Origin: Eledone cirrhosa
Taxonomy: Eukaryota
Assembly: GCA_964016885.1 (NCBI GenBank)
Contig: OZ024751.1
Location: 27,342,001-27,406,000, forward strand
Direction: 5' to 3'
DNA length: 64,000 nt
Below are positions 34,765 to 61,697 of this stretch, in pieces (position 1 is the first letter of the stretch; each line of letters begins with the position of its first letter). The translations under genes were made by a program, and so were the position numbers. The notes under the pieces were generated by a model. That model did not search any database and was not told the DNA's origin. It worked only from the letters and a program-made list of their open reading frames with translations.

Positions 34765-34767
34765 ACA

Positions 34768-39351: not shown

Positions 39352-39382
<31 letters not shown>

Positions 39383-39610: not shown

Positions 39611-39642
<32 letters not shown>

Positions 39643-40012: not shown

Positions 40013-40044
<32 letters not shown>

Positions 40045-40069
40045 ATTATATATATATATATATATATAA

Positions 40070-40158
<89 letters not shown>

Positions 40159-40159
40159 A

Positions 40160-40244
<85 letters not shown>

Positions 40245-43200
40245 TCATGATCATGTGATCATCATTTTACACCTATTTTCCATCTATCTGTCTCTCCCAC
40301 CTCTATTCATCAGCCCAGTTAAAATTATCCGCCTCATTGGTGCTGATACAGTGGAAGACATCATCTTTCAGCGTAGTTCAACAAAACTGAAGTTAACCAA
40401 GCGTGTCATTGAAGATGGAGATTTTTCATTGAAGTCAAAGAAGACATCCCAGTTTTCTTCTGTCACTGATGATAAAGTCAAGGTAAGACTCACTGGTGAA
40501 CGGGCACATGTATCTAGGAATACATTATCTAATGTGTCTTTTCAATTTTTTTATTGTTTTCCTAAATTGGTGTTTGGAAGAATGTTCAACCCTAGAAACT
40601 GAAAGGACTCTTCAGTTGTAGGACATCTCTTGCATCAAGGACATATCATCTCTTGTGTCATGATTAATTCTACTTAGTAACTGCTGTAAAGGGGTTGCTG
40701 TAGGTATGGGCATCCAACCATAGAAACCATGGCAAAGAAAGGGTTGCATGAAAGGACTCTTCAGTTGTGTTAAGTGCATGATAACCTCTCTAGTGCTGAT
40801 GCCATGGTTGGTGTCAGGAAGGGCATCTAGCTGTAGAAGCTATGTCAAAACAGGAATATATGTAAATGACACATGGCCATTAGTTGGTCTAGTAGGACTA
40901 GCTCCAATTAAGAACTATCTTGGTCTGTAATAACCCATGTCAGTCTAGGAGGACTAGCTCTAATTAAAAACTATCTTGGTCTGTAACCCATGTAAAAACA
41001 GACATAGAAGTATGATAGCAGTGCTCTTGATTGTCTTCAGGGCCTCTGAGACTTGTAAGAGAGAGCGAGGAATATATCTTCTAAAGAGAGACCAGGTGAC
41101 AAATTAACTCTACCAATCAAATAAACCATGGTTCGATTTGAACTCAGAATGTTAAAAGGATGAAATATATACTGCAAGGCATCTCATCTGATAGTGTAAC
41201 AATTCTGCTCTAGATTGGTAGTATTATCTCACCTGATAGTCTAACACTGGGACTATATTTTATCATCCTCATCTCCAAGTCACAAAGCTTGGAACACAAA
41301 GTTGACCTCTTTGGGATTTCAACTCAGAACCAACAGATCAAATACAACAAAGCAGTCTATTCTATATTCTAATGACACGGTCAGCCCACAACCTGTTTAA
41401 AATAGTAAAGTGGTGGTGGTGATAGTGTGATGGTGGTGATGGTGATAATAGTTGTGGTGATGGTGGTGATTGTTGTGGTAGTGGTGGTGGTGGTGGTGAT
41501 GATAGTTGTGGTAGTGATAGTGTGATGGTGGTGATGGTGATGATAGTTGTGGTGGTGATATTGTTTATGTTTCATATGATGTGGTGACAGTAATGTTGTT
41601 GTTTTGCAGTTAAAAGATATTCTGAAGTTTGGGGTTGATAAACTCTTAGAGAATCCATCTGATGACAGTTCCTTGTCTGTTGACTTCACCTCTGTATTGG
41701 GCAGCTCGGACAACAACCAGTGGACAATCTCTGGTCAGGATGGAACAGCAGATACAATTACACAACGGGTAATATATTGTTATATCATTCTACAACTATA
41801 TTTGACAATGTTGGATTAGAATATAGAATTATATTACCATATTTAGTAATGTTATACATGGTCGTGTAGGTGTCACGGAAAAAAAGCACCCTGTCCACAC
41901 AGTAAAGTGGTCATGTTGGTGTCACAACAAAAAGCACCTAGTCCTCTCTGTAAAGTGATCATGTGGTTGTCATAACAAAAAGCACCCAGTCTATACTATA
42001 AATGTGGTTCAAGTTAAGGAGGACATCCAGCTGTAGAAACCATGAGCAAGAGATGGTCACCTGTATGAGCAAGACCTGGTCACCTGCATGAGCAAGACAT
42101 GGTCACCTGATCTGACAATGTGACAACACGTCTAACCCATACTAGTGTGGAAAAATGGCCATAATTATTGATATATCACTGTGTGGCCATAGGTGGAGAT
42201 TTTGTGTCACTCTATGACCATATATGGTAATAATATATTACAATGTTACACCAGTGTATGTTAGCTGTGAACCAGTATGTCTATATATGGTGCTGTTGCT
42301 ACATACACACTTATACACACATACATACACTCACAGACACACCACACACACACTCACATACTCACAAACACACACTCACAGACATACACACACACTCGCA
42401 GACACACACACACACACATAGATACACAATCACACACACTCTCACTCACACACGCAGACACTCAAATACAGATATACTCACACACTCACATACAGATATG
42501 CACAATCACACGCACACACACAGAAAAACACATTGTCATTTCTTGCCCTTCTTCTCCAGTGTTTCAAACGTGATGACAAGGAGGACCAACCATCTACAAT
42601 TTACAAATTTGAGGGTCTCGACTACTCAAAGGCGCCATCTGCGACTGATCTCGATGCTTTTGACAAACTCGGTGATGGTAAGTAGGAAGGGTTTCATTCT
42701 CACAGATTCTTTGTTTCATTTTGTTGCTAGGTCAAAGAGATAATGATAGTGTCCATTACCTTGGTCTCTGAGACTGGTGGGAGGGTGAGGCAACAACCAT
42801 GATACTAAAACTTGTGGGAGGAAGTCAGACCCCATGACCTATTTCAGGGCCACTGAAGTAGTGTGAGGGAAGTCAGACCCCATGACCTATTTCAGGGCCA
42901 CTGAAGTAGTGTGAGGGAAGTCAGACCCCATGACCTATTTCAGGGCCACTGAAGTAGTGTGAGGGAAGTCAGACCCCATGACCTATTTCAGGGCCACTGA
43001 AGTAGTGTGAGGGAAGTCAGACCCCATGACCTATTTCAGGGCCACTGAAGTAGTGTGAGGGAAGTCAGATCCCATGACCTATTTCAGGGTCACTGAAGTA
43101 GTGTGAGGGAAGTCAGACCCCATGACCTATTTCAGGGCCACTGAAGTAGTGTGAGGGAAGTCAGATCCCATGACCTATTTCAGGGCCACTGAAGTAGTGT

Positions 43201-45743
43201 GAGGAAGTCAGACCCCATGACCTATTTCAGGGCCACTGAAGTAGTGTGAGGGAAGTCAGATCCCATGACCTATTTCAGGGTCACTGAAGTAGTGTGAGGA
43301 AGGGCAGTCCCCATGACCTATTTCAGGGTCACTGAAGTAGTGTGAGGAAGGGCAGTCCCCATGACCTATTTCAGGGTCACTGAAGTAGTGAGGGAAGTCA
43401 GATCCCATGACCTATTTCAGGGCCACTGAAGTAGTGTGAGGGAAGTCAGACCCCATGACCTATTTCAAGGTCACTGAAGTAGTGTGAGGAAGGGCAGTCC
43501 CCATGACCTATTTCAAGGTCACTGAAGTAGTGTGAGGAAGGGCAGTCCCCATGACCTATTTCAAGGTCACTGAAGTAGTGTGAGGAAGAGCAGTCCCCAT
43601 GACCTATTTCAGGGTCACTGAAGTAGTGTGAGGAAGGGCAGTCCCCATGACCTATTTCAGGGTCACTGAAGTAGTGTGAGGAAGGGCAGTCCCCATGACC
43701 TATTTCAGGGTCACTGAAGTAGTGTGAGGGAAGTCAGTCCCCATGACCTATTTCAGGGTCACTGAAGTAGTGTGAGGGAAGTCAGACCCCATGACCTATT
43801 TCAGGGTCACTGAAGTAGTGTGAGGGAAGTCAGTCCCCATGACCTATTTCAGGGCCACTGAAGTAGTGTGAGGGAAGTCAGTCCCCATGACCTATTTCAA
43901 GGCCACTGGAATGAAACTGTTTGATATATTTATTGGGTTGAGTCATAAATAATTTCCGTTTGTTGTAACTACACATTTCAAACTTTCAATTACCTGATTG
44001 GAGAGATTCTTCATCGGTCATTCTTATTTCATTAGTGAAAGAGTGCACATCATAATTTAATCAATGGTTTCACATCCCTAAAATGGAGGAACTGAAAGTA
44101 CATATTTGACACGTAATGTTGTGGGAGTTTAAGAATAAGAAAAAAGCTACAGAAACAGCTGAGAAAATGTGTAGTGTTTATAGCCAAAGTGTCATTACTG
44201 ACCGCCAAGTCCGAAATTTTGTTCTGGGTATATGTCATTGAGAGATGAACCCAGACCAGGATGCTCATCAGACCTCGATCAAGATACTTTAAGAGAAGTG
44301 GTGGAATGTAATCCACGCAAAAATACTTGAGAATTAGCACTTGACATCCAAATCCACAATCTGCCGCGACTTGGAAAAGATAGGAAAAGTGAACAAACTG
44401 GGGCATTTGGGTTCCTCAAACTCTTAGTGAGCAGAATAAGAAAGATTGCATATCCATAGCAACAAGTCTTCTTTCAATGCAAAAGAAATGACCCGTTTCT
44501 CAAGAATATCATTAAAGGTGATGAAAAATGGGTCTTTTGTGACAATGGTCAACACAAAAGGCAGTGGATTGACAAGGATAAATCTCTGCAGTTTACCCCA
44601 AAGGTGGAGCTTCCTGGAAGAAAAGTTATGCTGTGTGTATGGTGGGATCACTGCGGTATTATTTATTTTGAGTCTTTAAACTGAAATCAGACACTCAATG
44701 CAGACTTATACTCTCAACAGCTCCAACATGTGCATGAAAATCTTCTAAGAAAACACCCTGCACCCATCAACAGGAGAAACCTTGTGCTTCTCCATGATAA
44801 CACAAAGCCACACTCAGCAATATTGGATTTAGGTTGGTCTGTTCTACCCCATCCACCATATTTATCAGACCTTGCACCAAATAATTTTCATCTTTTTTGT
44901 TCTCTACAAAATGCTCTGAATGGCAAAAAATTTCTCAAGAAGATCAGCTGAAAACGTTTGTGGAAAACCTCTTGAGCTCAAAACCAGCTGAATTTTACTT
45001 GAGAGGAATCAACAAGCCACCTGGTAAATGGTAACAGGGGGTTCAAAATAATGGCAGATATACTATTGATTGAAATTAATTCATTGTTAAATTATTCATG
45101 AATAAATTATTTTATTAAAACGGAAATTATTTATGACTCAACCCCATAGAATCCCCAGTGTTAAACCAAAGACGAAATCTCTCCGACATGTTGCCATCAA
45201 CTTCTCAGCAGACTCGGGTAAAACTCTCCGCAGAACAGATTAAAGAACGAGAAAAGAAGGTAAGCAATTTTGGAAGAATTCTAAAATATACGTGTGTATA
45301 TATATATATATATGTATGGTGGCGTGTTAGTGTAATGGTAACACATTGGTCCAGCAAATTAAAGATTAATATTCGAAAAACTCAGATTACAATTATTGTA
45401 TTCAGCCATGTAGAGTGAAAATCTTTTTTTTATATATATATATATATATATTTCAATAATAATATTTTATATTATATGGATATGTTTATATTCGATTGTG
45501 TATTTTTTTATATATATCCTTTATATTATATATTTATGTGGGGTTTGTATACATATATACTTATATAGCAGCCAAATCTCACTCAAATTGGAGCTCATTA
45601 TGTAGAAAGACTAATTGGATAATCTTGTCGGTTCTAGATACAGTATATATAAAAATATAGCAAATGATGGGATGGTCACATCTGGAACACCTTTGATCCT
45701 AACTCTGCTACATCTTGATATAGTCCTTTCATCTCTCTCTCTC

Positions 45744-45777
<34 letters not shown>

Positions 45778-48700
45778 CACACACACCATTGTTACACACA
45801 AACTCGTATTGATTCTATGCCATTTGTCCAATTTAGCGCCAGGAAACTCTAGAACGGAAACTTAAAGAACGAGAGGCTTTAGCAATACAGAGAGCTGCTG
45901 AGAAGGAAGAGAAGAGGTAAGTGATTATCTATGGCACAATTTTAGATTCAGTCATTGTCTATATATATATATATATATAAATATATATATAGACACTATA
46001 GGTTCAGACATTTGCAGTTGAAGACAATTGTTTTTATAGAGATAAGTACGGTGCCAATACATATAAACAATGTATTAAACAGTTATAATTAATACTTTAA
46101 ATAGAATTCCAACATAGATGTAAGGAGAGATAGGCTAAACGTTATTTAGCACATCAAGAAGAATATAGGCAAATAATATAGAAAGGTATCAGATATAAAC
46201 AAGTTTATAAATGATGAAAAGAAGAAATAAGAAATATTAAGCTGGTGATGTACATAAGCTTGGAATAGTCTATTAAGTAGAAGTAGGGAAGTTGTGTGAT
46301 AGAATAGTCTATTAAGTAGAAGTAGGGAAGTTGTGTGATAGAATAGTCTATTAAGTAGAAGTAGGGAAGTTGTGTGATAGAATAGTCAATTCATATATTT
46401 TATCTGATGAGGATGTACTGAGAAAACAGCACAGTACCTCCGAAATATATATAATAAAACATATATTTTGATTATGTGAACGTCTTCATTTATTAATATT
46501 TTGAATGATATTAATAACTCCAGAAAACTTCATTGTAGAGTGCTTTTAATCTATTGTAAAACTATATTCATTGAGTAATCAATGAACCATATTAATCTTT
46601 AGTCATATATATATTCATTTCGTTTTACGTCCGCTTTTCCCCTGCTTGCAAAGGTGGGACGGGAACTGATTCTGGCTTGATTTCTACAGCTGGATGCCCT
46701 TCCTAACACCAACCTCATTTACAGTGTGGGCTGGGTGCTTTTTTTCCGTGGCGTCTACACATCCACTTTACAGTGTGGGCTGGGTGCTTTTTTGCCGTGG
46801 CACCTCCATGACCACTTTGCAGTGGAATGATATGGACCCCAGTCCCTATCATCTCATTTCTACAGCTGAGTAAACTGGAGCAATGTGAAATAAAGTGTCT
46901 TGCTCAAGGAAACAACACATCACCCGGTCTGAGAATTGAACTCACAACCTCTCGATTGCAAAGCCAATGCTCTAACCACTAAACCATGTGACTCCATATA
47001 TATATATATATAAATATGGCAAAATTCAGTTGCACCTGTTATTCAAGGGAGCAGCTTTATCACATTATCTTGCTGAATCTCCCTGAGAACTACATTGAGT
47101 GTTGAAATGTCTGGAATACTGAGTTACTTCTGTTGATTAATCAACTGGAAGACATTCCATTGTTGGAGATGATGGCGGTCCAATGACATGTAATCTCTCT
47201 TCTACATCATTGAATGTCTATAGATGTCTTTTACTTGTGATTGTTCCAGAAACATCACCTTGATAGGCGCCACCTGACTATTGTATATATATGACCTTGA
47301 ACCTGACTACTGTATAGATATATGACCTTGAACTTGACAATGCTGTATAGATATATGACCTTCAACCTGACTACTGTGTAGATATATGACCTTGAACCTG
47401 ACTACTGTGTAGATATATGACCTTGAACCTGACTACTGTGTAGATATATGACCTTGAAGCTGACAATACTGTATAGATACATCACCTTGAACTTGACTAC
47501 TATATAGATATATGACCTTGAAGCTGACAACACTGTATAGATATATTACCTTGAACTTGACAATACTGTATAGATATATGACCTTGAACTTGGCAATACT
47601 GTATAGATATATGAGCTGGCATGGGTTGAAGGGGGTTGCAGCTTTTCCCAGACTCTTGTTGCTGCTGTCACTCATTTTTAACAGAATGGACTGGAGCAAT
47701 GTTTAATGAAGTGCTGTGTTCCACCCAGTACAAAAATCAAACCCAAAAACTTCTGATGACGCCAACACCCTAACCACTCTGCCACATATGTTCTCTAAAG
47801 TAATTTATTGTTTCTTTGTAGGGCTGCCCTCTGGAGAGACAATGGTTATATCTCCTGTAAACTGACATCAGATGGTTCAGAAGAGGACAGTGATGATGAA
47901 GAAGACTCTATTGACCCTGTGGACATTAGTTATGTGAGAGGAGACGTGACACACCCGGTGCCTGTCTCACAAACTCATCAGAACTTCATCATCCATTGTA
48001 TTGGTAAAATATTTCTCTCAGTCATATTTATATATATTGCTTTGTGAAAGACATCCTCCATACCCTTATGTGTCACAAAAGGTATATCATATCTGTGTCA
48101 CAATAGGTATATCATATCTGTGTCACAATAGGTATATCATATCTGTGTCACAATAGGTATATCATATCTGTGTCACAATAGGTATATCATATCTGTGTCA
48201 CAATAGGTATATCATATCTGTGTGACAATAGGTATATCATATCTGTGTCACAAAAGGTATATCATATCTGTGTCACAATAGGTATATCATATCTGTGTCA
48301 CAATAGGTATATCATATCTGTGTCACAATAGGTATATCATATCTGTGTCACAATAGGTATATCATATCTGTGTGACAATAGGTATATCATATCTGTGTCA
48401 CAAAAGGTATATCATATCTGTGTCACAATAGGTATATCATATCTGTGTCACAATAGGTATATCATATCTGTGTCACAATAGGTATATCATATCTGTGTGA
48501 CATTAGGTATATCATATCTGTGTGACAATAGGTATATCATATCTGTGTCACAATAGGTATATCATATCTGTGTCACAATAGGTATATCATATCTGTGTGA
48601 CAATAGGTATATCATATCTGTGTGACAATAGGTATATCATATCTGTGTGACATTAGGTATATCATATCTGTGTGACAATAGGTATATATCTGTGTGACAT

Positions 48701-49724
48701 TAGGTATATCATATCTGTGTGACAATAGGTATATCATATCTGTGTGACAATAGGTATATCATATCTGTGTCACAATAGGTATATCATATCTGTGTGACAA
48801 TAGGTATATCATATCTGTGTGACAATAGGTATATCATATCTGTGTGACATTAGGTATATCATATCTGTGTGACAATAGGTATATCATATCTGTGTGACAA
48901 TAGGTATATCATATCTGTGTCACAATAGGTATATCATATCTGTGTGACAATAGGTATATCATATCTGTGTGACAATAGGTATATCATATCTGTGTGACAT
49001 TAGGTATATCATATCTGTGTGACAATAGGTATATCATATCTGTGTCACAATAGGTATATCATATCTGTGTCACAATAGGTATATCATATCTGTGTCACAA
49101 TAGGTATATCATATCTGTGTCACAATAGGTATATCATATCTGTGTCACAATAGGTATATCATATCTGTGTCACAATAGGTATATCATATCTGTGTGACAA
49201 TAGGTATATCATATCTGTGTCACAATAGGTATATCATATCTGTGTCACAATAGGTATATCATATCTGTGTGACATTAGGTATATCATATCTGTGTCACAA
49301 AAGGTATATCATATCTGTGTCACAATAGGTATATCATATCTGTGTCATAATAGATCTCTTAAGCTATATATATATAATATGTATGTATGTATATGTATAT
49401 ATATCTATGTATATGTATATATATATATATATGTATGTATATATGTATATATATATATATGTATGTATATATATATGTATATGTATATATATATGAATGT
49501 ATATGTATATATATATGTATGTATATATATATATGTATATATATATATGAATGTATATGTATATATATATATATATATGTATGTATATGTATATATGTAT
49601 GTATATGTATATATGTATGTATATGTATATATATGTATGTATATGTATATCATCATCATCTTTGTTTAACGTCCATTTTCGAAGATGATGATGATATACA
49701 TATACATACATATATATATGTATC

Positions 49725-49804
<80 letters not shown>

Positions 49805-49870
49805 TACATATATACATATACATACATATATGTGTATATGTATATGTGTATATATATATATGTATATGTG

Positions 49871-49941
<71 letters not shown>

Positions 49942-50477
49942 ATATATATATATACATATATAGATATATATATACATATATACATATATAGATATATATA
50001 CATATATACATATATAGATATCATCATCATCAACGTTTAACGTCCGTGTTCCACGCTTGCATGGGTTTGGACGGGGGTAGTCCCACTTGAGGCAAGAGTG
50101 ATTGTCTTGCTCGCATAGGACTGTCTGGCGGGTTTTCTACAGTTGGATGCCCTTCCTAACACCAACCACATTTACAGTGTGGGGCTGGGAGGTTTTTACC
50201 GTGTTGACTACACGGCCACATTACAGCGTGGACTATGTGTTTTTTGTCGTGACACCTACACGATCTCATTTGTTTCGGCCTGGATGGTGTGGCACCAACA
50301 TAACTTTACATAGGAGGGGGTGGTGTGGATATACATATATAGATATATATACATACATAAATATGTATATGTGTATATATATATATATATGTATATGTGT
50401 ATATATATATATATGTATATGTATGTATATGTATATATATATATGTGTATATAGATATACATATACATACATAAATA

Positions 50478-50518
<41 letters not shown>

Positions 50519-50649
50519 GTATGTGTATATATATATATGTATATGTATATATATATATGTATATGTATATATATATGAATGTATATGTATATATATATGT
50601 GTATATGTATATATATGCATATATATATGTATGTATATATATATATATG

Positions 50650-50701
<52 letters not shown>

Positions 50702-53700
50702 GTAATAATAATAAATTTGAAGACTAAAATCCAAAGAGGGCTCGATAAGGATAAATATATATCAAATAATATGTATATGTATATATTTATGTATGTATGT
50801 ATGTATGTATACTTATATATATATAGATATATATATTTAATGATAACAATAATAATTCTATTTTTTATTACCCTCAGATGATTCTGGTGAATGGGGTGTT
50901 GGAGGTGTTTTCACTGCCATCACAACCAGGTCAACAATACCAAAGACACAGTATGAATTGGCTAAAAAGATGAAAGGTTCGTAGCAATGGTGGTGGTTTA
51001 CCAGTAAAATAAGGTTTGGAGGGGGCGGTGCTACTATACATGTGAGTTTATACTTAGTGCTGCCACATGTGTGCTGTGTAGTTGATCAAGTGCTATCCTG
51101 TCAGCTGCCTCAGAAACATCCCATCAAATGTAGTATTTTAATCCAGTTCTTGAACCATGGCTATCTCTGAGAATTACTGACCCCTCCCCTTAATCCAGTT
51201 CTTGAACCATGGCTATCTCTGAGAAGTACTGATCCCTCCCCTTAATCCAGTTTTTGAACCATGGCTATCTCTGAGAAGTACTGATCCCTTCCCTCAGTGG
51301 TCGCCAACCTTTCTAAAACCGAGGAACCCTCTAAATATTTTGAATTCTTCACGGAACCTATACAATACAAAACTTTTCAAAAAAAAATAATAAAGTATTT
51401 ATTTATTTTAGTGAACTTACGTTGTGAGAACAGTGAACTGACCCTGTCTCTCGGCTGAGAGACCTCGCTGAACTGAAGTTTTCAGTTTAATGTTATGCTG
51501 TCACCGACCAACATTTACTTGTTCGTGATTGGTCAATTTCTAAGTTCAATTAGTGTATTATCAGTAGTAATCAAATTCAGAAAACTGTCTTTCCAAGAAT
51601 TGATTAGAAAGTATTCAATTTCCACGAATCTCAGAACAGTGTTTTTCTGCTAATTCAAGTGAGAAACTGAAAGTAGTGTTTTCCACAAATTGGAGTGGAG
51701 GACCTGTGTACACTACAATAGTACAAATGTATAAAGAATACTTTATACATTGCACCGTTTTCAGAAAACCCAAAATATTAATGGTAATGTAAATATTTAC
51801 TTTTTTAAGGAACCCGGAGTTTGTTTTGCGGAGCCCATGTTGGCGACCACTGCCTCCCCTTAATCCAGTTCTTGAACCATGGCTATCTCTGAGAATTACT
51901 GATCCCTCCCCTTAATCCAGTTCTTGAACCATGGCTATCTCTGAGAATTACTGATCCCTCCCCTTAATCCAGTTCTTGAACCATGGCTATCTCTGAGAAT
52001 TACTGATCCCTCCCCTTAATCCAGTTCTTGAACCATGGCTATCTCTGAGAAGTACTGATCCCTCCGCTTAATCCAGCTCTTGAGCCATGGCTATCTCTGA
52101 GAAATACTGAACCCCGGCCCAGTATATGAGGTAGAATGGGAATATCATAATTTGGTGTTGGGGTTTTGTCAGGGGGACAGACATAATATCCTGAAAATGT
52201 ACTGTGTTCCCCTGTACTATAGACAGTACTATATAAGTCCCCTGTACTATATGTCCCCAGTACTATATATGTCCACTGCACTATTGACAGTACTATATAT
52301 GTCCCCTGTACTATAGACAGTACTATATGTCCACTGCACTATTGACAGTACTATATGTCCCCTGTACTATAGACAGTACTATATATGTCCCCTGTACTGT
52401 AGACAGTACTATATGTCCCCTGTACTATAGACAGTACTATATATGTCCCCCTGTACTACAGACAGTACTATATATGTCCCCCTGTACTACAGACAGTACT
52501 ATATATGTCCCCTGTACTGTAGACAGTACTATATATGTCCCCTGTACTATAGACAGTACTATATGTCCCCTGTACTATAGACAGTACTATATATGTCCCC
52601 TGTACTGTAGACAGTACTATATATGTCCCCTGTACTATAGACAGTACTATATGTCCCCTGTACTATAGACAGTACTATATATGTCCCCCTGTACTATAGA
52701 CAGTACTATATATGTCCCCCTGTACTATAGACAGTACTATATATGTCACCCTGTACTACAGACAGTACTATATATGTCACCTGTACTATAGACAGTACTA
52801 TATATGTCACCTGTACTGTAGACAGTACTATATATGTCACCTGTACTATAGACAGTACTATATATGTCCCCCTGTACTATAGACAGTACTATATATGTCC
52901 CCCTGTACTATAGACAGTACTATATATGTCCCCTGTACTACAGACAGTACTATATATGTCCCCTGTACTGTAGACAGTACTATATATGTCACCTGTACTA
53001 CAGACAGTACTATATATGTTCCCTGTACTGTAGACAGTACTATATATGGCCCCCTGTACTATAGACAGTACTATATATGTCCCCTGTACCGTAGACAGTA
53101 CTATATATGTCACCTGTACTGTAGACAGTACTATATATGTCACCTGTACTATAGACAGTACTATATATGTCCCCTGTACTGTAGACAGTACTATATATGT
53201 CCCCTGTACTGTAGACAGTACTATATATGTCCCCCTGTACTATAGACAGTACTATATATGTCCCCTGTACTGTAGACAGTACTATATATGTCCCCCTGTA
53301 CTATAGACAGTACTATATATGTCCCCTGTACTACAGAGAGTACTATGTATGTCACCTGTACTATAGACAGTACTATATATGTCCCCTGTACTGGAGACAG
53401 TACTATATATGTCACCTGTACTGTAGACAGTACTATATATGTCACCTGTACTACAGACAGTACTATATATGTCACCTGTACTATAGACAGTACTATATAT
53501 GTCCCCTGTACTATAGACAGTACTATATATGTCACCTGTACTGTAGACAGTACTATATATGTCCCCTGTACTATAGACAGTACTATATATGTCCCCTGTA
53601 CTGTAGACAGTACTATATATGTCACCTGTACTGTAGACAGTACTATATATGTCACCTGTACTGTAGACAGTACTATATATGTCACCTGTACTACAGACAG

Positions 53701-56700
53701 TACTATATATGTCACCTGTACTATAGACAGTACTATATATGTCCCCTGTACTATAGACAGTACTATATGTCCCCTGTACTACAGACAGTACTATATATGT
53801 CCCCTGTACTACAGACAGTACTATATATGTCACCTGTACTACAGACAGTACTATATATGTCACCTGTACTATAGACAGTACTATATATGTCCCCTGTACT
53901 ACAGACAGTACTATATATGTCACCTGTACTATAGACAGTACTATATATGTCACCTGTACTATAGACAGTACTATATATGTCACCTGTACTACAGACAGTA
54001 CTATATATGTCCCCTGTACTATAGACAGTACTATATATGTCCCCTGTACTGTAGACAGTACTATATATGTCACCTGTACTGTAGACAGTACTATATATGT
54101 CACCTGTACTGTAGACAGTACTATATATGTCACCTGTACTGTAGACAGTACTATATATGTCCCCTGTACTACAGACAGTACTATATATGTCCCCTGTACT
54201 ATATATGTCCCCTGTACTGTAGACAGTACTATATATGTCACCTGTACTATATATGTCACCTGTACTATATATGTCCCCCTGTACTATAGACAGTACTATA
54301 TATGTCCCCTGTACTATAGACAGTACTATATATGTCCCCCTGTACTATAGACAGTACTATATATGTCCCCCTGTACTATAGACAGTACTATATATGTCCC
54401 CCTGTACTATAGACAGTACTATATATGTCCCCCTGTACTATAGACAGTACTATATATGTCCCCTGTACTGTAGACAGTACTATATATGTCACCTGTACTA
54501 TAGACAGTACTATATATGTCACCTGTACTATAGACAGTACTATATATGTCACCTGTACTATATATGTCACCTGTACTATATATGTCCCCCTGTACTATAG
54601 ACAGTACTATATATGTCCCCTGTACTATAGACAGTACTATATATGTCACCTGTACTATAGACAGTACTATATATGTCCCCTGTACTGTAGACAGTACTAT
54701 ATATGTCACCTGTACTATATATGTCCCCCTGTACTATAGACAGTACTATATATGTCACCTGTACTATATATGTCCCCCTGTACTATAGACAGTACTATAT
54801 ATGTTCCCTGTACTATAGACAGTACTATATATGTCCCCTGTACTATAGACAGTACTATATATGTCACCTGTACTATAGACAGTACTATATATGTCACCTG
54901 TACTATAGACAGTACTATATATGTCCCCTGTACTGTAGACAGTACTATATATGTCACCTGTACTGTAGACAGTACTATATATGTCACCTGTACTGTAGAC
55001 AGTACTATATATGTCACCTGTACTACAGACAGTACTATATATGTCACCTGTACTATAGACAGTACTATATATGTCCCCTGTACTGTAGACAGTACTATAT
55101 ATGTCACCTGTACTATAGACAGTACTATATATGTCCCCCTGTACTATAGACAGTACTATATATGTTCCCTGTACTGTAGACAGTACTATATATGTCACCT
55201 GTACTGTAGACAGTACTATATATGTCACCTGTACTATAGACAGTACTATATATGTCACCTGTACTATAGACAGTACTATATATGTCACCTGTACTGTAGA
55301 CAGTACTATATATGTCACCTGTACTATAGACAGTACTATATATGTCACCTGTACTATAGACAGTACTATATATGTTCCCTGTACTATAGACAGTACTATA
55401 TATGTCACCTGTACTACAGACAGTACTATATATGTCACCTGTACTATAGACAGTACTATATGTCCCCTGTACTGTAGACAGTACTATATATGTCACCTGT
55501 ACTATAGACAGTACTATATATGTTCCCTGTACTATAGACAGTACTATATATGTCACCTGTACTATAGACAGTACTATATATGTCACCTGTACTATAGACA
55601 GTACTATATATGTCACCTGTACTATAGACAGTACTATATATGTCACCTGTACTGTAGACAGTACTATATATGTCACCTGTACTGTAGACAGTACTATATA
55701 TGTCCCCTGTACTGTAGACAGTACTATATATCTCCCCTGTACTGTAGACAGTACTATATATGTCACCTGTACTATAGACAGTACTATATATGTCACCTGT
55801 ACTGTAGACAGTACTATATATGTCACCTGTACTGTAGACAGTACTATATATGTCCCCTGTACTGTAGACAGTACTATATATGTCCCCTGTACTGTAGACA
55901 GTACTATATATGTCACCTGTACTATAGACAGTACTATATATGTCCCCTGTACTATAGACAGTACTATATATGTCACCTGTACTATAGACAGTACTATATA
56001 TGTCCCCTGTACTGTAGACAGTACTATATATGTCCCCTGTACTGTAGACAGTACTATATATGTCACCTGTACTATAGACAGTACTATATATGTCCCCTGT
56101 ACTGTAGACAGTACTATATATGTCCCCTGTACTGTAGACAGTACTATATATGTCCCCTGTACTGTAGACAGTACTATATATGTCACCTGTACTGTAGACA
56201 GTACTATATATGTCACCTGTACTATAGACAGTACTATATATGTCACCTGTACTGTAGACAGTACTATATATGTCCCCTGTACTATAGACAGTACTATATA
56301 TGTCACCTGTACTATATATGTCCTGTTATCTCATTGCCAGATATTAACCTCGGTGACTGCCATTTAATTGTGTTGAATGAAGACGACAAATGTTGGGTGA
56401 GTAGAAACTTAAACTCACAGCCTCCACTCACATCTGAACTCTCTCAGCCTCCACTTATGTCTGAACTCTTCTACTAATCTGTGTTTGAATGCTACCTTGT
56501 CACTTTAGCAATCTGTCAATTGCCAAGTGACTAGTTGCTAACAATTCAGTTTGTAAAATGGTTGACATTAGGAAGGGTATCCAACCATGACCATCATGCC
56601 AAATATGGAAAATATGAGTAAGATGAGGTTACCATGACATTCTATCAAACACATGTCAGTGGGGAAAGTAGATGTAAAATGATTGTGATGATGATGATGT

Positions 56701-58290
56701 TGGTGATCATGATGATGATGGTTGTGGTGATGGTGATGATGTTGGTGTTGATGTTGTGTTAATCAGTTTTGTCAGTTTCTTGCGGTTGATGCTCACTTAT
56801 CTCTGCTAAACCATCAGTTGCTATCTAACCCCCCCCCTCCACGTGTTGCTATGTAAACCCCCCCCCACCTCATGTGTTGCTATGTATACCCCCACCACAT
56901 GTCTGACATTCTCAACTCCTTCCTTCCCAGGTGGCACTGATTGTAGCTCAACATCGGACAAGGAGTAATAATCTATCTGGGATCAAAATGGAGTCATTAA
57001 AAGAAGGACTGAAGAAACTTTCTGTTGCTGCAAAACAAAGAAACGGTGAGTATCCAATATATTTCTACCTGTGACATCTACCTGTGACACCTCTACCTGT
57101 GGTTAAGAAGATTCTTTCACAACCAAATGGTTTGAAGTTTGCTTCCACTACATGGCACTTTGAGCTTTGGGTTGACTAATGTGTTGAGAAGTGAAACTTT
57201 GTAGACAGAAACTGCATAGAAGCCTGTCATGTATGTGTGTGTATATATGTATAGGGGAGCAGTCAGCAAAGTTAGGATTAACAATGACTATAACAAGGAA
57301 TTTAGCATTCAGGTTGTCTCTGTTCTTAGCCCTCTCCTATTATCAGATTGCAGGCTATAATAGAGGAGTTTAAGACTGGCTGGGAACTCCTGTATGCAGA
57401 ATTAGAGAGGAAATTCCAAACCTGGAAGCATGGCCTATAAACAAAGTGTCTTCAATCTGACAAAGACTAAGATCCTAGTAAGTAGAAGAGAAAACAATGA
57501 AAGGCAGACTGTATGATGTGTGTAACAGCAATGTTGCATGGTAGTGAGACTTGGGAACTGTATGTATATGAACAGCAATGTTGCATGGTAGTGGGACTTG
57601 GGAACTGTGTGCAGAGGACCTGCGTAGATTGGAAAGAAATGAAGCCTGCATGCTCCAATGGATGTGTAATAGTAATATACGTGAACAGCAAAACATAAAC
57701 GAACTGAGAGAGAAACTAGGCATGTATGTAGGAGAGGAAATTGCGTTGGTATGAACATGTGATGCATATGAAGGATGACAGCTGCCTAAAAAGGTGCAGA
57801 GTACTCAAAGGTGATGGAAGTCATGGTGTAGGAAGACCCAGGAAGACTTGGAATGAGGTAATAAAAGCTGACCTTGCCCAATTGCACCTCTCGAAGGTGA
57901 TGACACCAGACCGAGATCTCTGCCATTAGATGGCGATGGTGATGATATAGATATACATGAAGGATGACTGCTGTATAAAATGGTGCAGGGCACTCGAGGT
58001 TGTAGGGTGCTCCGAAAGAGGAAGACATGGGATGTAACGATAAAGGCAGACCTGACTCAGCTGAACCTCCCAAAGGAGATGACACAGGATCGAGACCTCT
58101 GGCACTACAAGATAGGACAGAAGACCCAAGATGACAAGCCAGCCCAATCCACAACAGAATCATCCAGTAACAGGGCCCCACAATGAGCAAGGCATGGCAC
58201 GGCCAACTGCCAGAACTCCCTCAGTTCTGTCTGAACAAGGTATGGCACAGCCATATCTCATATCTGTAAACCATGAATCTATTGAATCAG

Positions 58291-58340
<50 letters not shown>

Positions 58341-61300
58341 AAACTTTTCTACAGAAATACATAACATATATATATATAGAGAGAGAGTATGGCAGTTCTT
58401 GAATTATTGGTAATTCCATTCCAATAATGGTTCTTCCTCATATAGAACCATAGAGTTTTTTCTCATTTAATTTTAATATAGATATTGTTTCTCTGAGAGA
58501 TGTCTTTCATTGATATGTTTGGGTATTAGTGACTAATTAATATATAGAGATATAAGAAGTACACTAACGACTGAAGTTTATGATAGAATTATATCTATAT
58601 GGGGTGTGTAACGGAGACTGCACCAGTGTGTATAAATGTATACACATATCTAATATATACACATGTAGACATGCCAGAAAATATTTCCCTGTAAATTGAT
58701 TATCATTTTTTTTTAATCTCGGGGAAATTTGTATTTTCTGGCATGTCTACATATTAGATGTGTGTATATATTTATACACACTGGTGTTCTTTCGGTTGAA
58801 CTCTCTATATTTATACAGATATAACTTTATCATACACTTCAACTACTAGGGCACTTCTTAATTAATTACAAGTGCTAATTATATGCAAATTAGTATGTAA
58901 ATTAGTGTGTAACCAAAACTGTGCCAAAGTGTAAACAAGCCAGAAAATACGAATTTCACTGTAAATTGAAAACAAAATGATAAACATCTCATTATATGTC
59001 TTAATTAATTACAACACAAGTGCTAATTATATGTAAATTAGTATGTCCATTTCAGAATAATATCAAGAGAGAATGGTTATATAAACCCATGAACTACATG
59101 GATGATAGACACATCTGATGAGAGCCCAATAAGTTCTGAGAATCTATCATTTTTTTTCAATTTACAGTGAAATCCATATTTTCTGACATGTTTACATGTG
59201 TATATATTTTTACTGTTTTATCCTAGATAAGCAATCTCTTGCAGCCCAGTGGTTTTACTTGTCTTACCTAAAACTCTGTAAAGATCCACATGCAAAACAG
59301 CATTTAGCTGTAGAATACTGCCTCAAAAGGTTTCATCCAACCCATGCCAATAAAAGTAGATGTAAAAACAGGGATGATATTTATATTCTGAAAGAGACTG
59401 AAATCATTTGCTGTGCCTTATGTAATATCTCTTACCAATTCTCTTTATACAGCCAGCATCCACTTACCTAGGATTGGACATGATACACCATCATTTAACT
59501 GGTATGGAACTGAGAGACTAATCCGGAAACATCTAGCAGCGAAAGGCATCCCTACTTATATGTATCCTTATCTTACACCCTTTCAACACCAAACTGACCC
59601 TGCTAGTCATATATTGTTAAGACTCACTGCTATGACACCAACTCTGTATCTAACTTAACTCTAACTCCAGATATTATTATCCTCGGCGAAGTCATTTAAA
59701 ACGAAGGAGGTCATCACAAGAAGCTGGTCCTTCTACAAAAGGTCAGTTGTCTGTTAGTGGAGGTAGTGGTGGTGGTGGGTAGTAGTGGTGGTGGTGGTGT
59801 CTAGTGTTTCTATACCACTACCTCACACTGCCCTCTCCTGTACCCCTACTCACACATCCTTATCTCAACTCTTTCGTTTGCAGATGCTGCATCACCAACT
59901 GCTGCGTCACCAAGCCATGCTGCATCACCAACTGCTGCGTCACCAACTTGCTGTACATCTGTGGATACCAAGAAGGTCTCCAACATACTGTTGGAGACCT
60001 TCCAAGGACTCTCCCTATATCTCTGGAAGTGTAACTCTGAAGACAGCAACATCTACAAACGATATATTATTGCATATCCTTTTTTTTATTTTCTATTTTA
60101 TTGTAGTGTGCATGGCCTACTGGTTAGGGTGTTGAACTCAATCATAAGGTTGTGTGTTTGATTCCTAGATCAGGTGGCACATTGTGTTCTAGAGCAAGAT
60201 GTTTCATTTCATGTTAGGATTAGAGGCCACCCTCATTAAAACACCTGATTAAGCTGCTGTGAGATGTAATTGCTGAGCAGGTCAGTTCAATCTGATGATG
60301 CTGTAATTGCAGGTTTTGCTGTAGAAATAGGTTGTCATGTTTGGTTACCATCCTTAACAGTGTACTTATGATGGAGAGTTTCATTCTGATATTCAGGAAA
60401 GTACAACTCATGTTGTTGTCTGTGTCAACAGAGACATAGAGGTGAGTAAACCTTTAGAGATCTGATTCATTTTCCATATTAGCATGGGTTAGACAAATTG
60501 TCCTATTGTGAGACAAGCCAGATCAAATGAAATGCCTTGCTCATACAGAACTGATTTGGGCTTGGTTTCTATGGCAGGATGCCCAACCACATTTACACAG
60601 TAGACTGGGTGCTTTTTGTCATGACACTAGAAGGACAACTTTACAGTGTGTACTGGGGTGCATGGGGATTGATGTAGATCTAGGGTGGGGTGTTAGGATG
60701 TGGGTAGTGTGTTAGTACTAGTAGTATAGGTTATATAACTGTTGTTAGTAACATAACACTAGTATTGTGTTGTACTGACAAGATAACTTATACTGCCACC
60801 CTCCATGTAGGTTTTACTTTCCTCAAGCTGAAATATAATCAACAGAGATAACCCTTCTCTACCCCACATTAACATAAGACACCCAGGTTTCTGTAACATA
60901 TTTCTACATGTGCAAGTCCTAGTAGTTAGTGTTTTTAGTCATGAATTTGATTCCAAGACCAAATTTACATTGGGTCTTTGAGTATGGCACTTCATTTTAC
61001 ATAGCTCCAGTTCACTCAGCTGTTAATAAGTAGCAGCAGGCGAGGGAGAAACCTGTCTATCCTGTCTAGAAAGGGGGCTTGGATTCTCATTTAACTCCTC
61101 CTGAAACCAGGATAAGCTCTGAATTAATGAGCCTCTAGACTTAAGATGAACTTTAACTTTTAAATGTCTGCTGGGGCCATGAGGCAGACAAACCCATAAA
61201 CAATACCATCCAGTTCCACTGTGAAAAGGCTCAGCATGGCCAACTGGCTGGTCCCTCCTCATAGTGGTGTGATAGGGGTTCGGCACAGCCAATGGGTGCC

Positions 61301-61697
61301 ATCCAGTTCGGCTCTGCAAATGTGGTTGGTGTTAGGAAGGGCATCCAGCTGTAAAAACCCTGGCCATATTTTACAGTCCCATCAGAGCAAGCTAATGGCA
61401 TGGCCAGACTTATCTTTCAACGTGGACATCCCGTCTGACCCATGCAAGCATGGACAAATGGACATTAAACAGTGATGATGATATGTATAACTATAACACA
61501 TCTTGTCATTTATAAGAAATATACAAAAAGAAATTGCATTTTAAGCCAAAATTTGCTCTTTGATATTTCAGGATCTTGCTTCAACGATGCGTTCTGTGTC
61601 CTCCTCTGCATTTGTGGTGAGTATGAAGTGGCTGAAAAAATGTCTGAAGACTGGTCAGTGTTGTCCAGTTGAGCCTTTTGAACTGGACATTCTCTGA
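17600..61697 (+). CDS. CHD1L: CHD1L/ALC1 orthologue: SNF2-family chromatin remodeller with macrodomain and extra C-terminal BRCT; 25 coding exons, about 1015 aa
   Basis: Hand-spliced exons join in phase without internal stops (3048 nt). Motifs: [15 protein letters not shown] (Walker A), [10 protein letters not shown] (Walker B), [103 protein letters not shown] (ALC1 macrodomain). Confidence 0.96.
19017..19250. repeat. 30-bp minisatellite, about 8 copies
   Basis: atatcaccaacacgaggaaggttgtcctgt. Confidence 0.95.
19636..19838. repeat. 22-bp minisatellite
   Basis: ccaaaggtcctttgggcaatag. Confidence 0.95.
19840..20076 (-). mobile_element. R4-like LINE RLE fragment
   Basis: Minus strand [28 protein letters not shown]. 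Confidence 0.75.
20368..20480 (+). CDS. CHD1L: CHD1L exon 2 (Q motif, Walker A)
   Basis: ttcag|..[38 protein letters not shown]|gtacc. Confidence 0.97.
22656..22762 (+). CDS. CHD1L: CHD1L exon 3 (motif Ia)
   Basis: cccag|[36 protein letters not shown]|gtagg. Confidence 0.95.
23108..23590. repeat. 48-50-bp minisatellite, about 10 copies
   Basis: ccctccctcccaacactctgaggtcctggtaagagccgtgggtgtta. Confidence 0.95.
23780..24960. repeat. 29-bp minisatellite, about 40 copies
   Basis: catctatagtcacctcccatactgtggta. Confidence 0.97.
25030..25330. repeat. 18-bp degenerate tandem repeat
   Basis: aactcgttaacactaatg-like units. Confidence 0.85.
25627..25756 (+). CDS. CHD1L: CHD1L exon 4
   Basis: accag|[19 protein letters not shown]...LDVLITTYE|gtaag. 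Confidence 0.95.
26583..26907. repeat. 65-bp minisatellite, 5 copies, ending about 20 nt before exon 5
   Basis: tgagcccccactgttgatcataagtctgctgtaggaacagggtgggctagacaacaacactacacc. Confidence 0.95.
26928..27038 (+). CDS. CHD1L: CHD1L exon 5 (Walker B, DEGH)
   Basis: ttcag|[37 protein letters not shown]|gtaag. Confidence 0.96.
27604..27760 (+). CDS. CHD1L: CHD1L exon 6 (motif III)
   Basis: tccag|[30 protein letters not shown]...DKQ|gtaaa. Confidence 0.96.
28331..28486 (+). CDS. CHD1L: CHD1L exon 7
   Basis: ttcag|[51 protein letters not shown]|gtaag. Confidence 0.96.
28754..28861 (+). CDS. CHD1L: CHD1L exon 8
   Basis: tgcag|AFVNTSG...[20 protein letters not shown]|gtgag. Confidence 0.96.
29378..29732 (+). 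mobile_element. tRNA-head, CORE-like SINE with (TGA)n tail (relatives near 31100-31425, 33960-34200, 35745-35920, 39405-39615, 41860-42160, 46615-46995, 50025-50330, 61310-61480)
   Basis: GTGGTTAGAGC..GAGTTCAATTCTC head, CCTTGAGCAAGACA..CTCCAGTTCACTCAGCTGTAAAAATGAG core, TTAGGAAGGGCATCCAGCTGTAGAAA body, GGACGT.AAA.GATGATGAT tail. Confidence 0.8.
30357..30527 (+). CDS. CHD1L: CHD1L exon 9 (motif IV)
   Basis: tgtag|[56 protein letters not shown]|gtaaa. Confidence 0.97.
32150..33404 (+). mobile_element. RTE-clade LINE 5' part with decayed APE endonuclease
   Basis: [62 protein letters not shown]. Confidence 0.88.
34461..34500 (+). ncRNA. Minimal type-I hammerhead motif in intron 9, with an inverted twin at 34386-34425
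   Basis: ccgag-CTGAAGA-tcggctaaggt-GAAAC-aatt-GTT-ctcgg; 5-bp stem I, palindromic stem III. Confidence 0.65.
35156..35200 (+). ncRNA. Minimal type-I hammerhead motif in intron 9
   Basis: gct-CTGAAGA-cctcaaac ctca gtttggat-GAAAC-aatt-GTA-agc, then AATAAA. Confidence 0.6.
36320..37215 (+). mobile_element. RTE-like LINE RT/3' fragment
   Basis: [38 protein letters not shown]. Confidence 0.85.
37751..37864 (+). CDS. CHD1L: CHD1L exon 10
   Basis: cctag|[37 protein letters not shown]|gtcag. Confidence 0.97.
38396..38765 (+). mobile_element. CRE-like non-LTR retrotransposon RLE fragment (3' piece also at 16330-16405, minus strand)
   Basis: [44 protein letters not shown]. Confidence 0.8.
38828..38942 (+). 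CDS. CHD1L: CHD1L exon 11 (motifs V-VI)
   Basis: accag|[38 protein letters not shown]|gtatg. Confidence 0.97.
39912..39964 (+). ncRNA. Minimal type-I hammerhead motif in intron 11
   Basis: attttgt-CTGATGA-ggacgtgc tgtt gtacctcc-GAAA-tatgta-TA-ataaaat. Confidence 0.7.
40314..40482 (+). CDS. CHD1L: CHD1L exon 12
   Basis: atcag|[39 protein letters not shown]...DDKVK|gtaag. Confidence 0.96.
41610..41768 (+). CDS. CHD1L: CHD1L exon 13
   Basis: tgcag|[17 protein letters not shown]...[10 protein letters not shown]...TQR|gtaat. Confidence 0.94.
42560..42677 (+). CDS. CHD1L: CHD1L exon 14 (linker)
   Basis: tccag|[39 protein letters not shown]|gtaag; matches the ALC1 YxFEGxDYSKxPS motif. Confidence 0.94.
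42818..43908. repeat. 49-bp minisatellite, about 22 copies
   Basis: gagggaagtcagaccccatgacctatttcagggccactgaagtagtgt. Confidence 0.97.
43933..45146 (+). mobile_element. Near full-length decayed mariner (Tc1/mariner) transposon
   Basis: 29-bp TIRs ttgggttgagtcataaataatttccgttt / aaacggaaattatttatgactcaacccca, TA duplication on both sides; broken transposase from ATG 44083 with [22 protein letters not shown] motifs. Confidence 0.95.
45150..45259 (+). CDS. CHD1L: CHD1L exon 15 (linker); acceptor directly abuts mariner TIR
   Basis: catag|[37 protein letters not shown]|gtaag; an in-frame alternative acceptor ccccag lies 9 nt downstream (exon start 45159). Confidence 0.85.
45837..45916 (+). CDS. 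CHD1L: CHD1L exon 16 (charged coiled-coil linker)
   Basis: tttag|[27 protein letters not shown]|gtaag. Confidence 0.92.
46398..46459 (+). ncRNA. Minimal type-I hammerhead motif in intron 16
   Basis: ttttat-CTGATGA-ggatgtactg..cagtacctcc-GAAA-tatata-TA-ataaaa; 6-bp stem I, 9-bp stem II. Confidence 0.72.
47275..47612. repeat. 31-33-bp minisatellite
   Basis: gatatatgaccttgaacctgactactgtgta. Confidence 0.9.
47822..48003 (+). CDS. CHD1L: CHD1L exon 17 (acidic patch, macrodomain start)
   Basis: tgtag|[12 protein letters not shown]...[10 protein letters not shown]...[11 protein letters not shown]...FIIHCI|gtaaa. Confidence 0.96.
48069..49350. repeat. 25-bp minisatellite, about 50 copies
   Basis: ggtatatcatatctgtgtcacaata. 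Confidence 0.97.
50878..50976 (+). CDS. CHD1L: CHD1L exon 18 (macrodomain)
   Basis: ctcag|[33 protein letters not shown]|gttcg. Confidence 0.96.
51137..52112. repeat. 52-bp minisatellite interrupted by a MITE
   Basis: ttaatccagttcttgaaccatggctatctctgagaattactgatccctcccc. Confidence 0.93.
51295..51852. mobile_element. hAT (Charlie-like) MITE
   Basis: 14-bp perfect TIRs CAGTGGTCGCCAAC/GTTGGCGACCACTG; 8-bp TSD ccttccct/cctcccct (7 of 8 match). Confidence 0.9.
52200..56322. repeat. About 4.1-kb satellite of a 30-bp unit in intron 18
   Basis: ctgtactatagacagtactatatatgtc(c/a)c with 17-, 28- and 31-bp variants. Confidence 0.98.
56341..56396 (+). CDS. CHD1L: CHD1L exon 19 (macrodomain)
   Basis: gccag|[19 protein letters not shown]|gtgag; phases fit both neighbours. 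Confidence 0.92.
56931..57045 (+). CDS. CHD1L: CHD1L exon 20 (macrodomain)
   Basis: cccag|[38 protein letters not shown]|gtgag. Confidence 0.96.
57320..58135 (+). mobile_element. RTE-like LINE 3' fragment with duplicated end (relative at 33680-33850)
   Basis: [30 protein letters not shown]. Confidence 0.8.
58553..59200. mobile_element. Fold-back/MITE-like long imperfect inverted repeats (58553-58860 and 58930-59200)
   Basis: caccagtgtgtataaat..tgtagacatgccagaaaata versus tattttctggcatgtctaca..atttatacacactggtg. Confidence 0.65.
59453..59561 (+). CDS. CHD1L: CHD1L exon 21 (macrodomain end)
   Basis: tacag|[37 protein letters not shown]|gtatcctt. Confidence 0.97.
59562..59670 (+). other. U12-type (minor spliceosome) GT-AG intron 21
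   Basis: 5' GTATCCTT; branch-like AACTTAAC at 59652-59659, 11 nt before the end of CAG; splicing restores GIPTYIYYYPR. Confidence 0.9.
59671..59741 (+). CDS. CHD1L: CHD1L exon 22
   Basis: tccag|[23 protein letters not shown]|gtcag. Confidence 0.92.
59884..60073 (+). CDS. CHD1L: CHD1L exon 23 (S-P linker, start of BRCT)
   Basis: tgcag|[22 protein letters not shown]...[29 protein letters not shown]|atatcct. Confidence 0.9.
60074..60365 (+). other. U12-type AT-AC intron 23
   Basis: 5' ATATCCTTT; consensus branch TCCTTAAC at 60351-60358; terminal ..GTAC; splicing restores RYIIAYDG in frame. Confidence 0.95.
60366..60441 (+). CDS. CHD1L: CHD1L exon 24 (BRCT)
   Basis: tgtac|[25 protein letters not shown]|gtgag; BRCT GG-equivalent turn and THV strand. 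Confidence 0.9.
61572..61697 (+). CDS. CHD1L: CHD1L exon 25 (BRCT end, stop)
   Basis: ttcag|[41 protein letters not shown]; BRCT VxxxWxxxC motif. Confidence 0.9.
   Translation, partial: DLASTMRSVSSSAFVVSMKWLKKCLKTGQCCPVEPFELDIL

What the first reader, a model, noticed from the sequence alone, without database searches (positions are those of the whole stretch)
59884..61697. CHD1L/ALC1 carries an extra XRCC1/LIG3-like BRCT domain after the macrodomain
Seen: exons 23-25 splice in frame to [52 protein letters not shown]. Knowledge: this matches the BRCT pattern of XRCC1 BRCT2 and LIG3 BRCT (F.G...YL..RY..AF.G..TH/V..W..C), which mediate BRCT-BRCT dimerisation in single-strand break repair; human ALC1 ends shortly after the macrodomain. 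Inference: a PAR-activated remodeller with a built-in docking module for XRCC1 or LIG3, hard-wiring remodelling to ligation. Longer orthologues may already be known in non-mammals.
Basis: partly seen in the sequence, partly recalled or inferred. Interest (0 to 1): 0.75.

Follow-up and report, generated by a model that had tools for sequence, protein, structure and literature searches.

The report
Ancestral ligase-III-type BRCT tail on ALC1
This octopus gene for the DNA-damage chromatin remodeller ALC1 ends in an extra BRCT domain that many other animals also have and placental mammals lack; the domain shares a rare intron with DNA ligase III and likely docks the remodeller onto the repair scaffold XRCC1.

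Summary
Confirmed. Exons 23-25 of an intact 25-exon, 1014-aa octopod CHD1L/ALC1 gene encode a BRCT domain. One spliced contig of a public run joins the macrodomain exons to all three. The O. bimaculoides orthologue passes the Pfam LIG3_BRCT cut-off, and its model matches XRCC1 BRCT2. The domain is not an octopus novelty: sponge, anemone, molluscs, annelids, echinoderms and hemichordates carry it, and the placental mammals listed lack it. New here: a minor-spliceosome AT-AC intron splits the domain at the same codon and phase as in this genome's LIG3 BRCT, whereas XRCC1's intron lies 9 nt away. The XRCC1-LIG3 dimer-face residues are largely kept. A cross-species model with XRCC1 BRCT2 scores 0.69 against a best control of 0.00, possibly from likeness to solved complexes. 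Likely role: docking on XRCC1 in LIG3's place. Binding to LIG3 or to itself is not excluded, and trees do not resolve the donor. No paper describing the domain was found in the searches run.

The parts
17603..61697 (+). CHD1L/ALC1 gene, 25 coding exons, 1014 aa (Snf2 ATPase, macrodomain, linker, BRCT)
47822..59741 (+). Exons 17-22: macrodomain and start of the C-terminal linker
59562..59670 (+). Intron 21, U12-type GT-AG (donor GTATCCTT)
   Evidence: skipped in the spliced contig
59884..60073 (+). Exon 23: Ser/Pro/Thr-rich linker, then BRCT N-stretch (from 59988), strand 1 and helix 1, which form the dimer face
60074..60365 (+). Intron 23, U12-type AT-AC, 292 nt, phase 2 in the Ala codon at the end of BRCT helix 1; same place and phase as the AT-AC intron of this genome's LIG3
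60366..60441 (+). Exon 24: BRCT middle (Gly turn, strands 2-3)
61572..61697 (+). Exon 25: BRCT helix 2, strand 4, helix 3 with the conserved Trp, stop codon
61780..61785 (+). AATAAA, likely polyadenylation signal
   Evidence: use as a signal is inferred

Best explanation
The gene is an ordinary, spliced ALC1/CHD1L orthologue that keeps an old C-terminal BRCT domain of the XRCC1-BRCT2/LIG3 kind, and this domain likely docks the remodeller on XRCC1's second BRCT, at the face where ligase III normally binds. Shown: the domain, its splicing, its presence across many invertebrate animal phyla, its absence from the placental mammals listed, and an AT-AC intron shared with LIG3. Inferred: the domain and LIG3's BRCT descend from one genomic segment. 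Inferred mechanism: PAR binding by the macrodomain recruits and activates ALC1, as in humans; the BRCT adds a PAR-independent tether to XRCC1; because the face is shared, LIG3 would replace ALC1 after the nucleosome has been moved. Amniotes likely lost the domain and rely on PAR and other contacts.
For: Pfam LIG3_BRCT over cut-off in 7 of 11 proteins scanned; the misses are 2 truncated models, 1 annelid with a long insert and 1 cat. AF2 model mean pLDDT 88.9; its top 7 Foldseek hits are XRCC1-BRCT2 or XRCC1-LIG3 entries. ALC1, LIG3 and XRCC1-BRCT2 domains form one branch at 100/98 against 8 outgroup BRCTs. Same AT-AC intron in LIG3 (G000:C3, identified by zf-PARP, ligase core and PBZ exons); own XRCC1 has a GT-AG intron 9 nt further on. 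A LIG3-class HMM outscores an XRCC1-BRCT2 HMM on 22 of 23 ALC1 domains. Asp at the LIG3-D876 position: 16 of 23 ALC1, 10 of 13 LIG3-type, 0 of 6 XRCC1. L539 and R564 equivalents: 23 of 23 (residue roles from passages of PMC7797052). Complex model of O. bimaculoides ALC1 BRCT with an XRCC1 BRCT2 of another, unnamed species: score 0.69, best of 3 controls 0.00, runs agree in at least 82% of contacts, partner pLDDT at least 86, contacts on the known face. The mark was reached by 51 of 78 solved and 2 of 108 mismatched microbial pairs, and by 39 of 65 solved and 2 of 126 unrelated eukaryote pairs. Human ALC1 and XRCC1 associate at damage sites (passages of PMC7708043).
Against: No binding was measured. 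Like complexes are solved (3PC8, 3QVG, 6WH1), so the model's pass may be from memory, and close cousins of a true partner passed in 10 of 12 calibration cases: it cannot pick XRCC1 over LIG3 or self. ALC1 domains also keep the XRCC1-side residue (K/R at 560 in 21 of 23, against 6 of 13 LIG3-type), which fits binding to LIG3 or self-pairing; the window's own protein has Asn there. Against PDB sequences XRCC1 BRCT2 scores higher than human LIG3 BRCT, 59 against 44 bits. AU tests reject no order of the three classes (p 0.43, 0.45, 0.49). The class HMMs are unequal (13 against 6 rows), and 4 of the 13 LIG3-type rows lack a catalytic core in the record. The shared intron was seen in one genome, and LIG3's splice is read from DNA only. 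Human ALC1 meets XRCC1 without the domain.
Confidence: 0.5

Rival explanations
1. The BRCT acts like XRCC1 BRCT2 and binds LIG3's BRCT directly, making a remodeller-ligase pair that bypasses XRCC1 (closest to the first reader's 'hard-wiring').
For: All three XRCC1-side determinants are kept: L539 in 23 of 23, K/R560 in 21 of 23, R564 in 23 of 23. XRCC1 BRCT2 is the top PDB match by sequence and by fold. LIG3 cannot ligate nicks near the nucleosome dyad, and the authors propose that remodelling is needed (passages of PMC13635136).
Against: The acidic end of helix 1, the class-HMM scores and the intron are LIG3-like. The window's protein has Asn at position 560. The N-terminal extension that favours the XRCC1-LIG3 pair (PMC3177190) was not tested in ALC1. 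This pair was not modelled.
Confidence: 0.2
2. The BRCT mainly pairs with itself, so that two ALC1 motors sit on one nucleosome or on neighbours.
For: The domain keeps both the basic and the acidic half of the face. XRCC1 BRCT2 and LIG3 BRCT both homodimerise through it (passages of PMC7797052 and PMC3177190).
Against: In the known pair heterodimers are considerably favoured over homodimers (PMC7797052). Not modelled here.
Confidence: 0.17
3. The BRCT has another ligand (PAR, DNA, a phosphopeptide, another protein) or is close to dispensable.
For: Lost in placental mammals with ALC1 function intact. A BRCT-less form ending in intron 22 is annotated in O. sinensis (2 of 9 cluster members). Cephalopod copies are long-branched.
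Against: As conserved between the two octopods as the ATPase (79 of 95 against 368 of 431). The invariant positions include the dimer-face Leu and Arg. It groups apart from XRCC1 BRCT1, which is the PAR-binding BRCT (recalled).
Confidence: 0.13

Closest known systems
Human ALC1/CHD1L (PDB 7otq, 7epu, 7enn)
   Same: Snf2 ATPase plus macrodomain; the sponge fragment P0037 aligns to the human chain up to residue 878 of 897.
   Different: The human protein ends about 20 residues later; this one adds a linker of about 55 residues and a 95-residue BRCT.
[quoted passage not shown]
   Same: Best BRCT Pfam family, acidic end of helix 1, three-exon layout and the same AT-AC intron in this genome.
   Different: Fused to a remodeller; usually keeps a basic residue at the XRCC1-R560 position; longer helix-2 region than human LIG3.
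XRCC1 second BRCT (PDB 1CDZ, 3PC6, 3PC8, 3QVG)
   Same: Best PDB match by profile (59 bits) and by fold (TM 0.70-0.76); L539, R564 and mostly K/R560 kept.
   Different: XRCC1 domains form their own branch (95/93), lack Asp at position 570 (0 of 6) and have different introns in this genome.
Annotated invertebrate CHD1L proteins (e.g. O. bimaculoides XP_014777205.1)
   Same: Same architecture; BRCT Pfam hits are already precomputed in the protein collection.
   Different: None of substance; the window's protein has Asn at the position where 21 of 23 have Lys or Arg.

Membership tests
ALC1/CHD1L remodellers | Snf2 ATPase followed by an ALC1-type macrodomain in one intact frame | tested here: met
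   25 exons, 1014 aa, 81% identical to O. bimaculoides CHD1L; family macrodomain matches human ALC1
ALC1/CHD1L remodellers | PAR-activated nucleosome sliding | not testable with these tools
   inferred from orthology
BRCT domain | Profile match above a curated cut-off | tested here: met
   Orthologue P0006: LIG3_BRCT 43.8 (cut-off 27), BRCT_2 31.6 (27.3), BRCT 24.0 (21.3); window's domain 57.9 bits on a LIG3-class HMM
BRCT domain | Central sheet with three helices and a conserved Trp in helix 3 | tested here: met
   AF2 model of the orthologue, pLDDT 88.9; Foldseek probability 1.00 to BRCT structures; Trp invariant in 16 of 16
XRCC1-BRCT2/LIG3 dimerising BRCTs | Groups with XRCC1 BRCT2 and LIG3 BRCT apart from other BRCTs | tested here: met
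   100/98 against 8 outgroup domains, 98/98 with the mixture model; not recovered in the 64-row tree with long TopBP1-like rows
XRCC1-BRCT2/LIG3 dimerising BRCTs | N-stretch Leu and helix-1 Arg/acidic residues of the dimer face | tested here: met
   L 23 of 23, R564 23 of 23, D/N570 23 of 23, D/E572 20 of 23; window has Asn, not Lys/Arg, at 560
XRCC1-BRCT2/LIG3 dimerising BRCTs | Forms a BRCT-BRCT dimer | tested here: inconclusive
   Model score 0.69 against control 0.00, but cross-species and like solved complexes; no experiment
LIG3-derived BRCT specifically | Sister to, or nested in, LIG3 BRCTs | tested here: inconclusive
   Shared AT-AC intron and HMM scores favour it; AU tests reject no order
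Tandem phosphopeptide-binding BRCTs (BRCA1 type) | Two BRCT repeats in tandem | tested here: not met
   One stretch per protein in the Pfam scans; stop codon follows directly
U12-type AT-AC intron | ATATCCTT donor, TCCTTAAC branch site near an AC end, removed in RNA | tested here: met
   skipped by the spliced contig. For LIG3 the signals are met; removal was not confirmed

The most novel reading that the evidence does not exclude
ALC1 was ancestrally a third member of the XRCC1-LIG3 BRCT dimer system. Its BRCT was copied as genomic DNA, minor intron included, from a LIG3-type gene. It holds XRCC1's ligase site while the nucleosome is moved and then hands it to LIG3, and minor-spliceosome activity would switch the BRCT of both proteins on or off together. 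Amniotes replaced this with PAR-only coupling.
Probability: 0.2. Interest if true: 0.75.

Novelty: new variant of a known kind. Interest (0 to 1): 0.47.

Why it matters
ALC1 is studied almost only in its human form and is a cancer target alongside PARP inhibitors. If most animals, likely including zebrafish, carry a docking domain that mammals lost, non-mammalian models differ in how ALC1 reaches repair complexes. How ligase III seals nicks buried in nucleosomes is an open question (PMC13635136), and a physical ALC1-XRCC1/LIG3 link gives a direct test with two 95-residue domains. The shared AT-AC intron is a rare marker of common origin that a 94-column tree cannot give. It also explains why gene predictors cut the domain off: 7 of 120 listed records stop at its read-through.

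Tried and rejected
Artefact of a forced splice: rejected by the spliced contig and the orthologue. Octopus-specific gain: rejected. Separate downstream gene: rejected, since one contig joins macrodomain and BRCT exons. A homologue search with the anemone BRCT region found only the query, 1 of 20 candidates. The full-library profile search (4107 hits, 150 listed) was dominated by multi-BRCT proteins and gave no vertebrate series. So amphibians, reptiles, birds, marsupials, arthropods, nematodes and non-animals were not surveyed by sequence here. No RNA holder was listed; run X4 was judged RNA-derived from its spliced contig only. LIG3's splice could not be checked on reads. The Atlas search gave generic BRCT clusters under 0.9. 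Trees of 64 and 47 rows did not resolve the donor; 2-3 near-duplicate XRCC1 rows were dropped from the first, and TopBP1-like, unassigned, long-branch and near-duplicate rows from the second. Homodimer and LIG3 pairs were not modelled (one job). Literature: listings of the searches combining ALC1/CHD1L with BRCT show no title or abstract on this domain. Term look-ups in PMC4245714, PMC7934534, PMC10386641, PMC11377751 and PMC5087659 found no passage on it. Ahel 2009 and Flaus 2006 were not held, and subscription journals, figures and supplements were not seen, so an earlier mention is possible.

Full report
1. The observation. The window holds one intact CHD1L/ALC1 gene on the + strand. tblastn with O. 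bimaculoides CHD1L (P0006) finds 25 exons from 17603 to 61697. A splice-site model gives 1014 aa without internal stop and 825 identities in 1017 columns, so the organism is an octopod other than that species (inference). Two introns are of the minor (U12) class: intron 21 (GT-AG) and intron 23 (AT-AC, 292 nt). Run X4, whose kind is not on record, has a 1275-nt contig lying on exons 20-25 in six pieces that are contiguous in the record. The macrodomain-to-BRCT transcript therefore exists, and the AT-AC intron is removed. This is one study and contigs only.

2. What the tail is. In the orthologue P0006, residues 918-1008 pass the cut-offs of Pfam LIG3_BRCT (43.8 bits), BRCT_2 and BRCT; 7 of 11 proteins scanned passed LIG3_BRCT. 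AlphaFold2 on a 16-row alignment gives a BRCT fold at mean pLDDT 88.9. Its first seven Foldseek matches are XRCC1 BRCT2 or XRCC1-LIG3 entries. A profile search of PDB sequences ranks XRCC1 BRCT2 (59 bits) above the LIG3 BRCT (44 bits). Between the two octopods the BRCT is 79 of 95 identical, like the ATPase (368 of 431) and unlike the linker (33 of 55), which points to purifying selection.

3. How widespread. A search with the last macrodomain exon found 830 proteins and listed 120. Of these 120, 20 have a complete BRCT, 7 stop at the read-through of the AT-AC donor, 54 end within 25 residues of the macrodomain, and 39 are fragments or other models. Named BRCT carriers are a sponge, an anemone, bivalves, gastropods, cephalopods, an annelid, a sea urchin and two hemichordates; a second annelid came. 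Every named short-tailed record is a placental mammal. Five unnamed, fish-like sequences carry the domain or its first exon (the fish label is my inference). A review table gives zebrafish 1026 aa, chicken 900 aa and human 897 aa (PMC7934534, section 6 read), which fits loss by the amniote stage but is length only. The domain is thus ancestral in animals and perhaps much older.

4. Origin. A LIG3_BRCT search of this genome gave one match, on contig C3. Upstream exons encode the zf-PARP finger, ligase core and PBZ motif, so the gene is LIG3. Its BRCT is split by an AT-AC intron of 1225 nt after the second base of the same helix-1 Ala codon as in ALC1, with U12 donor and branch signals, and by a phase-0 GT-AG intron in the same loop. 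This genome's XRCC1 has a GT-AG intron 9 nt further on and a phase-0 intron a few codons off in that loop. U12 introns are under 0.5% of introns (abstract of PMC2831892 in the listing), so independent gain at one base is unlikely; a common genomic origin is the simplest reading (inference). The read-through mark in sponge, snail, brittle star and fish-like records suggests that the ALC1 intron is old. Sequence agrees in part: a LIG3-class HMM outscores an XRCC1-BRCT2 HMM on 22 of 23 ALC1 domains, and hhalign gives 177.5 against 139.6, though the classes had 13 and 6 rows. Trees put the three classes on one branch (100/98) against 8 outgroup domains but leave the order open (AU p 0.43, 0.45, 0.49 for the three pairings). 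With long TopBP1-like rows the branch was not recovered. XRCC1 could have lost or shifted the intron, so the donor is not proven.

5. Mechanism. In the human XRCC1-LIG3 pair, XRCC1 L539, R560 and R564 contact LIG3 D849, D876 and D878 (passages of PMC7797052; PMC3177190 passages). In 23 ALC1 domains the L539 and R564 equivalents are invariant. Position 570/876 is Asp in 16 and Asn in 7, position 572/878 is Asp or Glu in 20, and position 560 is Lys or Arg in 21, but Asn in the window's protein. The face is therefore kept and carries both halves. ESMFold2 on the O. bimaculoides domain with an XRCC1 BRCT2 from another, unnamed species scored 0.69 against a best control of 0.00. The runs agreed in at least 82% of contacts, partner pLDDT was at least 86, and the contacts lie on the N-stretch Leu and helix 1. 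The mark was reached by 51 of 78 solved and 2 of 108 mismatched microbial pairs, and by 39 of 65 and 2 of 126 eukaryote pairs. Like complexes are solved, so this shows likeness, not binding, and does not choose the partner. I commit to docking on XRCC1 BRCT2 (0.5) because the intron, the acidic helix end and the HMM scores make the domain LIG3-like. That implies exclusion of LIG3 and a remodel-then-ligate hand-off, which is inferred. Rivals are direct binding to LIG3 (0.2), self-pairing (0.17) and another ligand or little function (0.13). Context from papers: human ALC1, without the domain, already associates with XRCC1, more strongly after damage and PAR binding (passages of PMC7708043). LIG3 cannot ligate nicks near the dyad, and remodelling is proposed as the way round (passages of PMC13635136).

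6. Novelty. The architecture is visible in public annotation (precomputed Pfam hits) and was noted once before by this scan on other DNA. Seven literature searches pairing ALC1/CHD1L with BRCT (listings and abstract starts seen) and term look-ups in five papers found no description. Two key older papers were not held, and figures and supplements were not seen. The parts not found elsewhere are the AT-AC intron shared with LIG3 and the interface analysis. Verdict: real, ancestral rather than exotic, a new variant of a known kind, with a cheap and decisive test. Interest 0.47.

Noticed in passing
window 59742-59783: Reading on into intron 22 gives a stop after 13 codons and an 897-aa BRCT-less protein. 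Two annotated O. sinensis isoforms end this way, so a BRCT-less form may exist, recalling the LIG3 alpha/beta switch (recalled).
   Followed up: partly
window 60111-60336: Run X4 has a low-depth (3.4) contig inside the AT-AC intron, compatible with slow splicing or retention of the minor intron; retention would give a 976-aa protein with half a BRCT.
   Followed up: partly
P0025, P0026, P0032, P0041, P0049, P0089, P0120, P0291: Public protein models of sponge, snail, brittle star, fish-like sources and O. vulgaris read through the AT-AC donor and lose or disrupt the BRCT, a systematic annotation error.
   Followed up: yes
L004, L011 (G000:C3, about 61955400-61959500, - strand): This genome's LIG3 has a PBZ motif before its BRCT and an AT-AC intron inside the BRCT.
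   Followed up: partly
L006: This genome's XRCC1 BRCT2 has His at the R560 position and Asn at the D541 position, both interface positions in the human pair.
   Followed up: no
P0159, P0219, P0263, P0284, P0228: Unnamed LIG3-type proteins or tails with two BRCT domains in tandem, unlike the single BRCT of animal LIG3.
   Followed up: no
window 52100-56310: Long array of roughly 30-nt tandem repeats in intron 18.
   Followed up: no
window 62000-63150 (- strand), 44200-44950, 36000-37100: Stop-riddled remnants that look like a LINE (62000-63150, 36000-37100) and a mariner transposase (44200-44950); labels recalled from motifs, not searched.
   Followed up: no
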